Origin: Escherichia coli
Lineage (GTDB): Bacteria > Pseudomonadota > Gammaproteobacteria > Enterobacterales > Enterobacteriaceae
Assembly: GCF_003019035.1 (NCBI RefSeq)
Contig: NZ_CP027447.1
DNA length: 64,000 nt
Reading direction: 5' to 3' (one strand)
Part shown: positions 7,105 through 22,129 of the stretch, in pieces
How positions within the stretch are numbered: position 1 is the stretch's first letter
How the letters are laid out: every line of letters begins with the position of its first letter
Notes under the pieces: model-generated
Seen by the model: only the letters and a program-made list of their open reading frames with translations
Told to the model about the DNA's origin: nothing
The model's database searches: none
Program-made: the position numbers and the translations under genes

Positions 7105-7120
7105 TGACAGGCGTTAGATT

Positions 7121-8369
<1,249 letters not shown>

Positions 8370-8465
8370 CATGCCTGCAATCTGGGAAACCGGGGTAGAA
8401 AAAAACTTGCAGGCCATAACAGTATCTACGAGGATCGTGCAATATATTTATTTTGCAAGATTGTG

Positions 8466-8499
8466 TAGGCCGGATAAGGCGTTTACGCCGCATCTGGCA
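8466..8499. repeat. REP / palindromic unit
   Basis: taggccggataaggcgtttacgccgcatctggca matches the REP consensus family. Confidence 0.5.
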
Positions 8500-8532
8500 T
8501 GAACAGTGTGCATTTTGGCAATAAATATGAAA

Positions 8533-8585
8533 CCAACTGTCATGTCGGTTTTTTTAAAGGCCGAAGGTGGTAAACCTTCGGCCTT
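8533..8585. terminator. Tandem hairpins: an imperfect terminator hairpin with T-tract (8533-8555) followed by a perfect 11-bp stem (8557-8585); likely 3' end of the small-peptide transcript
   Basis: ccaactgtcatgtcgg+ttttttt, then aaggccgaagg/ccttcggcctt; first hairpin is a near-copy of the terminator at 9011-9033. Confidence 0.45.
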
Positions 8586-8601
8586 AGCTACGTTTCCTCA
8601 G

Positions 8602-8685
8602 TTATTCAATAAACTGACGGATCAGTTCCAGCAGCGCGATTAGCGCCTTAAGAACGATGAGAACTTTATCGAGAAAAGTTTTCAT
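8602..8685 (-). CDS. Candidate type I toxin: 27-aa hydrophobic/amphipathic peptide MKTFLDKVLIVLKALIALLELIRQFIE (TisB/ZorO-like)
   Basis: Below the ORF-track size cut-off; read by hand on the reverse strand; SD AAGGGAG 6 nt upstream of ATG; single predicted helix with spaced K/E/R residues. Confidence 0.55.
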   Translation of the reverse strand: MKTFLDKVLIVLKALIALLELIRQFIE

Positions 8686-8910
8686 CCGTTGCTCCCTTAA
8701 GGGAGAAAGACAATCACAGCTTACCCTTACGTTGCCTGTAACTATGATTTTCTTCATGTGCTAGATGAGGACTGCCTCTCTCCAAATTAGAGCACCAGAA
8801 TCAGCACCACCTGTATCCTGACCAGGACTTAAAAGTACTTTTCCGCACTGCGGTAATCCCTTGAGGCAGTATCACTACTAGCGTCGGGATTGTATCGCCA
8901 ACATAGCTGT

Positions 8911-8939
8911 TTGAATATGTAGGCATCCTGACTTATAAT
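8911..8939 (+). promoter_or_regulatory. Near-consensus sigma70 promoter (TTGAAT-17 bp-TATAAT) for the candidate antitoxin sRNA
   Basis: -35 at 8911-8916, -10 at 8934-8939, predicted start near 8946. Confidence 0.5.
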
Positions 8940-8945
8940 TCACTT

Positions 8946-9033
8946 GCTAGATGAGGACTGTTTCATTTCTGCCCGGAACCACCAAGTCTTGGGCGGAAAA
9001 AATAAAAAAACCGACTGTCATGTCGGTTTTTTT
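8946..9033 (+). ncRNA. Candidate type I antitoxin sRNA (about 88 nt), divergent from the peptide gene
   Basis: Runs from promoter to intrinsic terminator without a credible ORF; its 5' 14-16 nt (ctagatgaggactg) repeat 8759-8774, so are complementary to the peptide mRNA 74-89 nt upstream of its ATG. Confidence 0.5.
9011..9033. terminator. Bidirectional intrinsic terminator (sRNA on + strand, mnmH on - strand)
   Basis: ccgac-tgtcat-gtcgg hairpin flanked by an A-run upstream and T-run downstream. Confidence 0.6.
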
Positions 9034-9096
9034 ATATCTGTATTCTGGTGCAACCATTTTGTTCTCACGACAATCGCCGTTTCAGAATACCGCCTA

Positions 9097-10206
<1,110 letters not shown>

Positions 10207-22045: not shown

Positions 22046-22060
22046 ACCTGAATTTACCGC

Positions 22061-22087
22061 AAAAAAAGCCACGGAATAAACCGTGGC
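22061..22087 (-). terminator. Intrinsic terminator after allE
   Basis: gccacgg-aataaa-ccgtggc hairpin; reverse strand is followed by a T7 run. Confidence 0.55.
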
Positions 22088-22129
22088 AAAATCCAACATA
22101 GCTAAAAATAATCAGGCGAGTGGTATGAC

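What the first reader, a model, noticed from the sequence alone, without database searches (positions are those of the whole stretch)
8602..9033. Compact divergent small-peptide / antisense-sRNA pair with type I toxin-antitoxin architecture
Seen in sequence: a 27-codon ORF on the minus strand (8685 to 8602, MKTFLDKVLIVLKALIALLELIRQFIE) with a strong SD (AAGGGAG, 6-nt spacer). The peptide is a single hydrophobic helix with spaced K/E/R residues, like the membrane toxins TisB, ZorO, ShoB and DinQ. Divergently, a near-consensus sigma70 promoter (TTGAAT-17-TATAAT, 8911-8939) drives an ORF-free transcript of about 88 nt ending at an intrinsic terminator (9011-9033). The first 14-16 nt of that transcript (ctagatgaggactg; the repeat is tgctagatgaggactg at 8759-8774 and 8945-8960) are exactly complementary to the peptide mRNA 74-89 nt upstream of its ATG. 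That geometry matches IstR-1/tisB and OrzO/zorO, where the sRNA 5' end pairs with a standby site in the toxin 5' UTR. The locus is too small for the ORF track and sits in the ybbP-mnmH interval. It may be a new member of, or a divergent relative of, the Zor/Orz family (about 25% identity to my recollection of ZorO); I cannot exclude that it is an already described locus.
Basis: partly seen in the sequence, partly recalled or inferred. Interest (0 to 1): 0.85.

Follow-up and report, generated by a model that had tools for sequence, protein, structure and literature searches.

The report
DinQ-like toxin with AgrB-like antitoxin
This is a real pair of genes, a small membrane toxin and the small RNA that silences it, but it is not new: it is a second copy of the known E. 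coli DinQ/AgrB type I toxin-antitoxin family, lacks a LexA box, is already annotated in public databases, and sits between ybbP and mnmH in about a quarter of E. coli genomes.

Summary

The locus is not a Zor/Orz member or a new family. It is a complete DinQ/AgrB-family module.
- The sRNA scores 53.6 bits on Rfam AgrB (threshold 40) and about 20-25 bits on OrzO-P (threshold 60).
- The peptide passes the NCBIfam DinQ model (40.9 bits, cut-off 30) and is 15/19 identical to K-12 DinQ. It shows no significant similarity to ZorO.
- RefSeq already calls the ORF dinQ, and "dinQ-like" (dql) genes were described in 2016.

About 1,330 of 5,426 complete E. coli genomes carry the locus, alongside the canonical gor-arsR dinQ. 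About 197 of them have a 108-bp deletion that removes the toxin start and the sRNA target but keeps the sRNA.

Across 19 family loci the sRNA 5' end and its target co-vary at 14 of 15 positions, always 71-78 nt upstream of the start codon.

This copy has no LexA box, so the label "damage-inducible" is unsupported.

By-products: zor leaders are homologous to DinQ-family leaders (E about 1e-13), and the module is about nine times more conserved than its flanks.

Interest is low to moderate.

The parts
8553..9036 (.). Whole DinQ/AgrB-family (DqlA-like) type I toxin-antitoxin module
   Evidence: It aligns collinearly with K-12 dinQ-agrA and with the Photorhabdus khanii and Hafnia paralvei modules (mean column identity 76% in the three-way alignment). 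It differs by only 1-4 of 484 nt between Escherichia genomes whose flanks differ by 2.5-5%.
8602..8685 (-). 27-aa hydrophobic toxin ORF (MKTFLDKVLIVLKALIALLELIRQFIE), stop codon included
   Evidence: NCBIfam NF041472 toxin_DinQ scores 40.9 bits against a cut-off of 30. The peptide is 15/19 identical to K-12 DinQ (E 3e-8) and 24/27 identical to the Photorhabdus homologue. RefSeq annotates it as dinQ.
8692..8705 (-). SD AAGGGAG (8698->8692) inside the palindromic hairpin CUCCC-UUAA-GGGAG (leader elements 3 and 4)
   Evidence: Read from the sequence. The hairpin is closed in the MFE fold of the full-length mRNA and of the sRNA-blocked mRNA, and is disrupted in the 5'-shortened form. The K-12 control behaves the same way. 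The stem shows a compensatory C:G <-> A:U change relative to K-12.
8686..8882 (-). 197-nt 5' leader of the toxin mRNA
   Evidence: It aligns with the family leaders through the blocks AAGTCCTGG, GGTGGTGC, GGAG(N)GAG, GACAGGCA and CGGATG. The leader length to the start codon is 198 nt, against 195 nt in K-12.
8761..8784 (-). sRNA target site in the leader (exact 14 nt at 8761-8774; extends to 24 nt with G.U pairs and one mismatch); it contains element 2, GGAGAGAG
   Evidence: The cognate duplex has dG -34.4 kcal/mol, against -14.5 +/- 2.4 for shuffled sRNA. The site is 74 nt from the start codon, as in K-12. Across the family, 14 of 15 pairs co-vary.
8863..8882 (-). Predicted mRNA 5' end GCUAGUAGUGAUACUGCCUC (element 1). 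It is a third, degenerate copy of the address and pairs with the target region in the full-length mRNA
   Evidence: The MFE fold of the full-length mRNA pairs nt 1-20 with the target region, as in the K-12 +1 transcript. GCUAG here corresponds to GUUAG in other members, matching the C that is unique to this locus's sRNA and target.
8889..8894 (-). Predicted toxin promoter -10 TACAAT; the -35 is weak (TTCAAA 8915->8910, 15-nt spacer); +1 is near 8882
   Evidence: It is in the same register as K-12 TATGAT-N6-G(+1)UUAG and Photorhabdus TATAAT-N6-GUUAG. It falls below the consensus scan threshold. No transcription start site data are available.
8911..8939 (+). sRNA promoter TTGAAT-17-TATAAT
   Evidence: 10 of 12 consensus positions. 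Its -35 overlaps the region upstream of the toxin -10, and the two +1 sites are 65 bp apart.
8947..9035 (+). 89-nt AgrB-family antitoxin sRNA: single-stranded 5' address, stem-loop 8968-8997, terminator 9002-9035
   Evidence: Rfam RF02891 AgrB scores 53.6 bits against a threshold of 40, over the full model 1-84. The fold has -34.6 kcal/mol and z = -5.4.
8557..8585 (-). Toxin mRNA terminator hairpin (AAGGCCGAAGG...CCUUCGGCCUU)
   Evidence: Inverted repeat I4, 12 bp perfect. It is in the same position as the K-12 dinQ terminator and folds as the 3' hairpin of the mRNA.
8517..8556 (.). Second copy of the sRNA terminator, just outside the left module boundary. It forms a direct repeat with 8995-9034
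   Evidence: Repeat D1, 83% over 40 nt. The copy is absent from the Photorhabdus and Hafnia modules. Strain LR-28 carries a single hybrid copy and no module, which is consistent with excision between the repeats.

Best explanation
Window 8553-9036 is a complete type I toxin-antitoxin module of the DinQ/AgrB family. It belongs to the DqlA-like subgroup, whose closest relatives are in Photorhabdus and Hafnia. It is a paralogue of the canonical E. coli dinQ-agrAB locus and coexists with it.

Inferred mechanism, by homology with dinQ (PMC3567139, PMC5066626):
1. A weak promoter (-10 TACAAT) makes an mRNA of about 330 nt from about 8882 on the minus strand.
2. In the full-length mRNA, the 5' end (element 1) pairs with the region around GGAGAGAG (element 2). 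Element 3 (CUUUCUCCC) is then free to lock the SD (element 4) in a hairpin, so the mRNA is not translated.
3. 5' processing near +49 removes element 1. Elements 2 and 3 then pair, the SD opens, and the 27-aa single-helix peptide is made. It inserts in the inner membrane and depolarises it.
4. The divergent strong promoter makes an 89-nt AgrB-like sRNA constitutively. Its unstructured 5' 14-24 nt pair with element 2 and its surroundings, 74 nt upstream of the AUG. This re-closes the SD hairpin and creates an RNase III substrate.

This copy has no LexA operator, so unlike dinQ it is probably not induced by SOS.

Shown here: sequence features, family membership, covariation, conservation and distribution. 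Inferred: transcription, processing, toxicity and RNase III cleavage.
For: Family membership
- Rfam AgrB scores 53.6 bits against a threshold of 40 over the full-length model.
- NCBIfam toxin_DinQ scores 40.9 against 30.
- The peptide is 15/19 identical to DinQ and 24/27 identical to a Photorhabdus homologue.
- The module aligns collinearly with K-12 dinQ-agrA.
- RefSeq annotation agrees.

Pairing of sRNA and target
- In the fetched family loci a cognate AgrB-like sRNA pairs with its target, 71-78 nt upstream of the start codon where a start could be placed. The distance is 74 nt in both the window and K-12.
- The window duplex has dG -34.4 kcal/mol. That is inside the range of the pairs taken as cognate (-31.7 to -44.4) and above the degenerate or second-copy sRNAs (most -14.8 to -27.8).
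- In 19 distinct sRNA/target pairs, 98.6% of cells are paired, against about 38% in the slid controls. 14 of 15 pairs show double changes, and 0 of 500 shuffles reach this.

Leader structure
- The window leader repeats the behaviour of the K-12 control: SD hairpin closed in full-length mRNA, disrupted in 5'-shortened mRNA, closed again when the target is blocked.
- Compensatory changes occur in elements 2:3 (GGAGUGAG:CUCACUCC in K-12, GGAGAGAG:CUUUCUCC here) and in the SD stem.

Conservation and precedent
- The module differs at 10 of 2,420 sites, against 206 of 5,475 in the adjacent mnmH, summed over five genomes.
- Another non-canonical member, the plasmid pair DqlB/AgrB, was shown experimentally to be toxic and to be rescued by its sRNA (PMC12365149).

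No LexA box
- There is no CTG-N10-CAG anywhere in 8000-9600.
- The position of the K-12 box reads GCGATACAATCCCGACGCTA here.
Against: - There are no expression, transcription start site or toxicity data for this locus.
- The toxin promoter falls below the consensus scan threshold and is placed only by homology.
- Perfect complementarity is 14 nt (16 nt if transcription starts at 8945), against 30 of 31 in K-12. The rest depends on G.U pairs.
- The computed SD accessibility changes little between the two mRNA forms (0.29 to 0.38). The validated K-12 control changes just as little (0.31 to 0.38).
- About 15% of carriers have deleted the toxin start, so the toxin is dispensable.
- A marginal LexA-like site (approximate HI 13.9) overlaps both -35 regions, so weak SOS control is not fully excluded.
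- The extreme conservation could reflect recent horizontal spread rather than selection.
Confidence: 0.9

Rival explanations
1. The locus is a new or divergent member of the Zor/Orz family.
For: - The geometry is the same: a divergent sRNA whose 5' end pairs distally in a long leader.
- The zor leaders are truly homologous to this leader: 69% identity over 98 collinear nt, shared blocks including GTAAGGGTAAG, and profile E-values of 1.3e-13 and 1.5e-12.
Against: - Rfam OrzO-P scores only 19.5/25.3 bits against a threshold of 60, and the match covers little more than the terminator. Genuine orz genes score 92-100 bits.
- BLASTP of the peptide against ZorO gives E = 8.5, and the peptide has no ALLRL motif.
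- The locus is not at the zor site between yehK and yehM.
- Every DinQ/AgrB test passes.
Confidence: 0.03
2. The locus is a true "damage-inducible" DinQ, an SOS/LexA-controlled toxin as the RefSeq product name says.
For: - RefSeq names the product "damage-inducible type I toxin DinQ".
- A marginal LexA-like sequence, CTGTTTGAATATGTAG (8907-8922), has an approximate HI of 13.9. Only 25 of 63,980 window positions score 15 or lower. It lies exactly midway between the two +1 sites.
- K-12 dinQ has a weak second operator with a published HI of 13.82 (PMC3567139).
Against: - There is no CTG-N10-CAG in the region.
- The position of the strong K-12 operator (HI 4.5-4.8) is substituted beyond recognition.
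- The aligned Photorhabdus sequence is not LexA-like.
- The plasmid members also lack a box at that position.
- The HI matrix was rebuilt from sites recalled from memory and is approximate.
- The product name is assigned by an HMM match to the peptide, not by evidence about regulation.
Confidence: 0.1
3. The locus is an inert relic: a horizontally acquired module that is no longer expressed or toxic and is being lost.
For: - About 197 of about 1,332 carriers have a 108-bp deletion that removes the start codon, the SD and the target.
- At least one strain (LR-28) has lost the whole module between the flanking repeats.
- IS elements land in and around the locus (IS621 here, IS200C in H31).
- The toxin promoter is weak.
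Against: - The ORF, SD, pairing and leader elements are all intact in 1,135 genomes.
- The module is about nine times less divergent than the adjacent gene, and 100% identical across the leader and sRNA in a different GTDB species representative. The only difference in the ORF is synonymous.
- The deletions remove the toxin specifically and spare the sRNA. That is the pattern expected if the toxin is active and the antitoxin cannot be lost first.
Confidence: 0.12
4. The main role of the sRNA is in trans on other targets, for example as a third Agr RNA acting on the canonical dinQ mRNA, rather than on the adjacent ORF.
For: - The predicted duplex of the window sRNA with the K-12 dinQ leader is -28.1 kcal/mol at the homologous site.
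- The sRNA is retained in toxin-deleted alleles.
- Orphan orz sRNAs are expressed in K-12 (PMC11264685).
Against: - The cross-duplex equals that of AgrA with dinQ (-27.8), and AgrA does not protect against DinQ (PMC3567139).
- The cognate duplex is stronger (-34.4).
- The unique C1 and the G7, G10 and G14 changes match the adjacent target, not dinQ.
Confidence: 0.08

Closest known systems
dinQ-agrAB of E. coli K-12 (gor-arsR intergenic region; Weel-Sneve 2013 PMC3567139; Kristiansen 2016 PMC5066626)
   Same: - 27-aa single-helix toxin sharing the core LIALLELIR.
- Divergent AgrB-type sRNA.
- Target 74 nt upstream of the start codon.
- mRNA of about 330 nt with a leader of about 195 nt carrying the four mutually exclusive elements and the SD hairpin.
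- Toxin terminator in the same place.
   Different: - Different chromosomal site (ybbP-mnmH).
- One sRNA gene instead of two.
- ATG start and a strong SD instead of GTG.
- The peptide has 3 extra N-terminal residues and is 3 residues shorter at the C-terminus.
- No LexA operator.
- 14-nt perfect complementarity plus wobble-extended pairing, instead of 30 of 31.
- About 60-70% DNA identity.
- Present in only about 24% of genomes.
dql (dinQ-like) genes dqlA/dqlB of Enterobacteriaceae chromosomes and plasmids (PMC5066626); DqlB/AgrB of pOXA-48, validated in 2025 (PMC12365149)
   Same: - The same family definition: leader similarity plus signature residues.
- Coexistence with dinQ in some strains was reported.
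- No LexA box was seen in the plasmid members examined here.
- The nearest peptides are MKAFLDKVLIVLKALVALLELIRQFID (Photorhabdus) and MSAFLDKAIMVLKALTVLLELIRQFID (Hafnia).
   Different: - I could not confirm that this exact locus is one of the 14 dql genes in that paper, because its figure and supplement are not held.
- It fails the DqlB model (24.5 bits against a cut-off of 35).
- No DqlA-type member has been tested experimentally, to my knowledge.
zorO-orzO / zorP-orzP (between yehK and yehM; Fozo 2010, Wen 2014/2017, PMC11264685)
   Same: - The same architecture and the same target position.
- Homologous leader (blocks AAGTCCTGG, GGTGGTGC, GGAGTG, GACAGGCAGTGTAAGGGTAAG, CGGATG).
- Toxin-less alleles with an orphan antitoxin are common.
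   Different: - The toxin is not detectably similar.
- The sRNA body is not recognised by the OrzO-P model, nor orz by the AgrB model.
- Different locus.
tisB-istR-1
   Same: - Divergent sRNA that pairs distally in a long leader.
- The mRNA is inactive until its 5' end is processed.
- The duplex is cleaved by RNase III.
   Different: - No sequence homology.
- TisB uses a ribosome standby site and is LexA-controlled.
- No tisA-like upstream ORF logic is needed here.

Membership tests
DinQ/AgrB type I TA family | Toxin peptide matches the DinQ profile and signature residues (K...LLELIR) | tested here: met
   NF041472 scores 40.9 bits against a cut-off of 30. BLASTP against K-12 DinQ gives 15/19 identity, E 3e-8.
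DinQ/AgrB type I TA family | AgrB-type sRNA (5' antisense region, internal stem-loop, terminator) encoded divergently from the toxin | tested here: met
   Rfam RF02891 scores 53.6 bits against a threshold of 40 over model positions 1-84, on the strand opposite the toxin. The fold has z = -5.4.
DinQ/AgrB type I TA family | The sRNA 5' end is complementary to the leader upstream of the RBS, at the conserved position | tested here: met
   The target lies 74 nt upstream of the start codon, as in K-12. The duplex dG is -34.4. Across the family, 14 of 15 pairs co-vary.
DinQ/AgrB type I TA family | Homologous 5' leader with mutually exclusive elements 1:2, 2:3 and 3:4 (SD hairpin) | tested here: met
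   Alignments. The MFE folds behave like the K-12 control. Computed SD accessibility differs only slightly between forms, as it does in the control.
DinQ/AgrB type I TA family | Peptide toxicity and inner-membrane depolarisation; rescue by the sRNA; RNase III cleavage | not testable with these tools
   Shown only for K-12 DinQ (PMC3567139) and plasmid DqlB (PMC12365149).
dinQ proper (orthologue of K-12 b4613, SOS regulon) | LexA operator overlapping the promoter (damage-inducible) | tested here: not met
   There is no CTG-N10-CAG in 8000-9600. The best site has an approximate HI of 13.9, against 4.5 for the K-12 box.
dinQ proper (orthologue of K-12 b4613, SOS regulon) | Located between gor and arsR, with tandem agrA and agrB | tested here: not met
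   The locus lies between ybbP and mnmH and has one sRNA gene. Carrier genomes show a second match place (H32-H38), and 5,415 of 5,426 genomes match the query somewhere, which I take to be the canonical locus.
DqlB subgroup | Matches the DqlB profile (MINLLIIVLRAV... type, 31 aa) | tested here: not met
   NF041473 scores 24.5 bits against a cut-off of 35.
Zor/Orz | Orz-type sRNA | tested here: not met
   OrzO-P scores 19.5 (+ strand) and 25.3 (- strand) bits against a threshold of 60. Real orz genes score 92-100 bits.
Zor/Orz | ZorO-like 29-aa toxin with the ALLRL motif | tested here: not met
   BLASTP gives E = 8.5. The ZorO sequence was verified from L014.
Zor/Orz | Homologous leader and distal target | tested here: met
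   A DinQ-family leader profile hits both zor leaders end to end, at E 1.3e-13 and 1.5e-12. This shows a superfamily relationship, not membership.

The most novel reading that the evidence does not exclude
DinQ/AgrB, the Dql genes and Zor/Orz form one superfamily built on a shared leader of about 146 nt that acts as a riboswitch-like device. Its variable 14-24-nt "address" is written in three places: the sRNA 5' end, the leader target and the mRNA 5' end. The ybbP-mnmH copy is a DqlA-type member that does not depend on LexA. It is held almost invariant (0.4% divergence against 3.8% in the flank) across Escherichia lineages by selection on the whole RNA device. It therefore responds to a trigger other than DNA damage.
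Probability: 0.4. Interest if true: 0.45.

Novelty: already known. Interest (0 to 1): 0.25.

Why it matters
As a discovery it matters little. The family, the mechanism and even the annotation of this ORF already exist.

It is useful in four smaller ways.
1. The RefSeq name "damage-inducible" is probably wrong for this paralogue, which has no LexA box.
2. It is a convenient chromosomal DqlA-type member for a first experimental test. It is present in the laboratory strain ATCC 8739, and natural toxin-less and module-less alleles can serve as controls.
3. Its address sequence differs from canonical dinQ/agrB at 4 of 14 positions. That illustrates how paralogous type I systems stay insulated from each other.
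4. The comparison shows that zor and dinQ leaders are homologous. A 2024 paper (PMC11264685) said no such link had been proposed.

Tried and rejected
- My first reading of the MAFFT leader alignment suggested a deletion of about 31 nt that removed the toxin promoter and the mRNA 5' end. Folding and the Photorhabdus alignment showed this was a misalignment. The register TACAAT-N6-GCUAG corresponds to TATGAT-N6-GUUAG.
- The alternative -10 AGTGAT (8877->8872) was rejected because it would cut off element 1.
- A tblastn of ZorO against the plasmid collection found nothing. I reached the zor locus instead through the visible part of the Rfam OrzO-P consensus.
- The supplement of PMC11264685 is truncated and that of PMC5066626 is not held. 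I therefore could not check whether this locus is one of the 14 published dql genes.
- Full-text searches for the peptide or sRNA sequence, and for dinQ together with ybbP, mnmH, ybbB or selU, found no relevant paper.
- SD accessibility from partition functions does not discriminate between mRNA forms, even in the validated K-12 case. I used only the MFE topology.
- I considered a kissing contact between the sRNA loop CCACCA and the invariant leader block GGUGGUG. I dropped the idea because the loop varies (UUACCA, CAACCA, CAACUA) while the leader block does not, so there is no covariation.
- Counting LR-28-type excision alleles by a junction query failed, because BLAST pieces from intact carriers were joined.
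Full report
**Observation**

The region was read on both strands.
- The minus-strand ORF 8685->8602 encodes MKTFLDKVLIVLKALIALLELIRQFIE. It is preceded by AAGGGAG (8698->8692) and a 6-nt spacer.
- TTGAAT-17-TATAAT at 8911-8939 is the only sigma-70-like hit in 8000-9600. A 14-bp stem with a T-run lies at 9002-9035.
- The 16-mer TGCTAGATGAGGACTG occurs exactly twice in the window, at 8759-8774 and 8945-8960. The chance expectation is 0.03.

**Identity**

- Rfam places the + strand transcript 8947-9035 in family AgrB (RF02891). It scores 53.6 bits against a gathering threshold of 40, over the full model, including when the whole 64-kb window is searched with default filters.
- The peptide passes the NCBIfam equivalog model for DinQ (40.9 bits, cut-off 30) and fails the DqlB model (24.5 bits, cut-off 35).
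- It is 15/19 identical to K-12 DinQ (E 3e-8).
- The whole module, from toxin terminator to sRNA terminator, aligns collinearly with K-12 dinQ-agrA.
- RefSeq annotates the ORF as "damage-inducible type I toxin DinQ". Some genomes carry the 27-codon form and others the 51-codon form. The exact peptide is a MULTISPECIES RefSeq protein seen on at least 1,000 contigs.
- Kristiansen et al. 2016 (PMC5066626) had already defined "dinQ-like" (dql) genes in chromosomes and plasmids of Enterobacteriaceae. They noted strains that carry dql together with dinQ.

- OrzO-P scores 19.5/25.3 bits against a threshold of 60, while genuine orz genes score 92-100 bits.
- BLASTP against ZorO gives E = 8.5. The ZorO sequence was verified in L014.

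**Distribution**

- 1,332 of 5,426 complete E. coli genomes hold the locus, always on the chromosome between ybbP and mnmH.
- 5,415 genomes match the query somewhere, which I take to be the canonical gor-arsR dinQ. Carrier rows show two places per record. The two loci therefore coexist.
- Only 1,135 genomes retain the segment 8666-8768.
- The others carry a 108-bp deletion between the short repeats GATGAGAAC and GATGAGGAC. It removes the start codon, the SD and the sRNA target, and leaves the sRNA gene and its promoter. About 15% of carriers are therefore "orphan antitoxin" alleles. This parallels the orz-only loci reported in PMC11264685.
- Other states of the site exist. An Rhs island occupies it in O157. 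SMS-3-5 has a 130-bp empty intergenic region. LR-28 has a single hybrid terminator where the module should be.
- The LR-28 allele shows that the direct repeat 8517-8556 / 8995-9034 flanks the module and can mediate its loss.
- In the window, and in strain SCU-301, an IS621 element sits in the REP cluster to the left.

**Family context**

- The plasmid collection holds 269 records with related modules, in Escherichia, Salmonella, Klebsiella, Enterobacter, Erwinia and others.
- A leader-motif scan of one genome per species found chromosomal members in Citrobacter, Pantoea, Hafnia, Photorhabdus, Leminorella, Kosakonia, Buttiauxella, E. whittamii and Escherichia sp. E1V33.
- Every plasmid locus examined (L003-L010) and 16 of the 19 scanned species loci have at least one AgrB hit above threshold.
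- The peptides closest to the window's come from Photorhabdus khanii (24/27 identical) and Hafnia paralvei. In the three-way alignment of the window, Photorhabdus and Hafnia modules, mean column identity is 76% across the whole length.

**Evidence that the pairing is functional**

- For each sRNA I computed the best duplex of its first 24 nt with its own upstream region.
- The pairs taken as cognate give -31.7 to -44.4 kcal/mol, and the window gives -34.4.
- Degenerate or second-copy sRNAs mostly give -14.8 to -27.8. K-12 AgrA, experimentally non-protective, gives -27.8.
- Shuffled window sRNA gives -14.5 +/- 2.4.
- Where a start codon could be placed, the target sits 71-78 nt upstream of it. 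The distance is 74 nt in both the window and K-12.
- The first 15 positions differ widely between loci but change together in sRNA and target. 98.6% of cells are paired, against 37-41% with slid partners. 14 of 15 pairs show changes on both sides. 0 of 500 shuffles reach any of the measures.
- The window contributes a unique C:G at pair 1.
- Caveat: the two copies are direct repeats on the DNA, so gene conversion could contribute to the pattern. Either way, complementarity is maintained.
- Counting wobble pairs, the window duplex has 18 contiguous pairs, then one mismatch, then 5 more. For Zor/Orz, 15 contiguous pairs, or 17 with one mismatch, suffice for repression (PMC11264685).

**Leader and promoter**

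- The correct register is window TACAAT (8894->8889)-CCCGAC-G(+1, about 8882)CUAG. This matches K-12 TATGAT-TATCCA-G(+1)UUAG and Photorhabdus TATAAT-CAACGG-GUUAG.
- An early MAFFT alignment misplaced this region, and I corrected it.
- The K-12 +1 was derived from the published statement that AgrB binds G88-A119.
- With +1 at 8882, the leader is 198 nt to the start codon (K-12: 195 nt) and the target is +99 to +122 (K-12: +88 to +119).
- The MFE fold of the full-length mRNA pairs its first 20 nt (GCUAGUAGUGAUACUGCCUC) with the target region, as in K-12.
- The 5' end is therefore a third, degenerate copy of the address. It carries the C that is unique to this locus.
- In MFE folds the SD hairpin CUCCC-UUAA-GGGAG is closed in the full-length form. 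It is disrupted when the 5' 48 nt are removed, because element 3 then pairs with GGAGAGAG. It closes again when the target is blocked. The K-12 control reproduces the published model in the same way.
- Elements 2:3 co-vary between loci: GGAGUGAG:CUCACUCC in K-12, GGAGAGAG:CUUUCUCC here, GGAGGGAG:CCCUCC in L006.
- Partition-function SD accessibility changes little in either locus, so I do not lean on it.

**LexA**

- K-12 has CTGGATAATCATACAG overlapping the -10 and the +1.
- The window has no CTG-N10-CAG anywhere in 8000-9600.
- I rebuilt a heterology-index matrix from LexA sites recalled from memory. It gives 4.54 for the K-12 box (published 4.83) and 10.6 for the second operator (published 13.82). 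On that matrix the best window site is CTGTTTGAATATGTAG (8907-8922), with HI 13.9.
- That value is marginal, and the aligned Photorhabdus sequence is not LexA-like.
- I conclude that SOS control is unlikely but not excluded.

**Conservation**

- I compared the window with five other Escherichia genomes, including the GTDB species representative Escherichia sp. E1V33.
- The 484-bp module differs at 1-4 sites per genome (10 of 2,420 in total). Adjacent mnmH differs at 27-55 of 1,095 sites (206 of 5,475). The short flanks differ by 1-5%.
- Against E1V33, the leader, promoters and sRNA are identical, and the only ORF change is synonymous.
- This indicates either strong constraint on the whole RNA device or recent horizontal spread. 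I cannot separate the two.

**Cross-talk**

The window sRNA on the K-12 dinQ leader gives -28.1 kcal/mol. AgrA on the window leader gives -25.6 and AgrB gives -19.5. The paralogues look insulated to about the degree that makes AgrA ineffective on dinQ.

**By-product: zor and dinQ leaders are homologous**

- The zor leaders (L014, located through the Rfam consensus) align collinearly with DinQ-family leaders.
- A profile built from 20 distinct DinQ-family leaders matches both zor leaders end to end, at E 1.3e-13 and 1.5e-12 for a 10-Mb search space. It gives no hit in the masked window or in L011.
- The Orz target occupies the same alignment position as the AgrB target.
- PMC11264685 noted a similarity of 71-74% between the zor UTR and some plasmid dinQ UTRs, and said no evolutionary relationship had been proposed.

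**Verdict**

This is a real, complete and probably functional type I toxin-antitoxin module of the known DinQ/AgrB (Dql) family. It is already annotated in RefSeq and recognised by Rfam.

What is specific to this copy:
- the absence of a LexA operator;
- a single sRNA gene;
- an ATG start with a strong SD;
- flanking terminator repeats;
- frequent toxin-only deletions;
- unusually tight conservation.

No member of its subgroup appears to have been tested experimentally.

Noticed in passing
L014 523-1553 (zorQ/orz, zorO/orzO) compared with window 8686-8834: The zor leaders are homologous to DinQ-family leaders over about 146 nt and have the same target position. A profile of DinQ-family leaders hits them at E 1.3e-13 and 1.5e-12. 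This suggests a single DinQ/Dql/Zor superfamily. A 2024 paper said no such relationship had been proposed.
   Followed up: partly
window 8664-8771 (deleted in L012, strain 20AR0192): A 108-bp deletion between the repeats GATGAGAAC and GATGAGGAC removes the toxin start, the SD and the sRNA target, and keeps the sRNA and its promoter. It occurs in about 197 of about 1,332 carrier genomes, giving orphan-antitoxin alleles.
   Followed up: yes
window 8517-8556 and 8995-9034; L040 (LR-28); L039 (SMS-3-5): The module is flanked by direct repeats of the sRNA terminator, with 21 nt exact. LR-28 has one hybrid copy and no module, which looks like excision between the repeats. SMS-3-5 has a 130-bp empty site with neither copy. 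The origin of the left copy is unresolved.
   Followed up: partly
window 8553-9036 versus 9097-10191: The module differs by 0.2-0.8% between Escherichia genomes whose adjacent mnmH differs by 2.5-5%. Against Escherichia sp. E1V33 the leader and sRNA are 100% identical. Selection and recent transfer cannot be told apart.
   Followed up: partly
window ~7120-8420 (transposase 7340-8320 +): An IS621 element (IS110 family) is inserted in the REP cluster between ybbP and the module. It is present in the window and in SCU-301, and absent from APEC 102026, ATCC 8739, 20AR0192 and E1V33. A REP/naRNA4-like element lies at 8468-8504.
   Followed up: partly
window 8907-8922: A marginal LexA-like sequence, CTGTTTGAATATGTAG (approximate HI 13.9), lies exactly midway between the two predicted +1 sites and overlaps both -35 regions. 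It is not conserved as a LexA box in Photorhabdus.
   Followed up: partly
L025 12748-13066 (Escherichia whittamii): In E. whittamii the AgrA-type sRNA is the near-perfect match to the local dinQ target (-40.0 kcal/mol). In K-12, AgrA is the degenerate copy.
   Followed up: no
L015 675-992; L026 7078-7836 (Citrobacter): Citrobacter werkmanii and C. amalonaticus carry three AgrB-like sRNA genes next to DqlB-type toxins. C. amalonaticus has two toxin genes in tandem, each with its own cognate address.
   Followed up: no
all leaders, e.g. window 8805-8811 (minus-strand GGUGGUG): The block GGUGGUG(C) is present in all but one of the DinQ-family leaders aligned (L006 reads CGUGGUGG), and in the zor leaders. 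It does not co-vary with the sRNA loop CCACCA. I do not know its role.
   Followed up: no
window 22057-22123 and 43524-43597: An Rfam scan of the whole window also finds the sRNA STnc480 (81.9 bits) and one tRNA gene.
   Followed up: no
L011 (O157:H7 TR01) 1-2436: In O157, an Rhs element and a ylbG pseudogene occupy the region upstream of mnmH in place of the module. Only window 9048-9094 is shared.
   Followed up: partly
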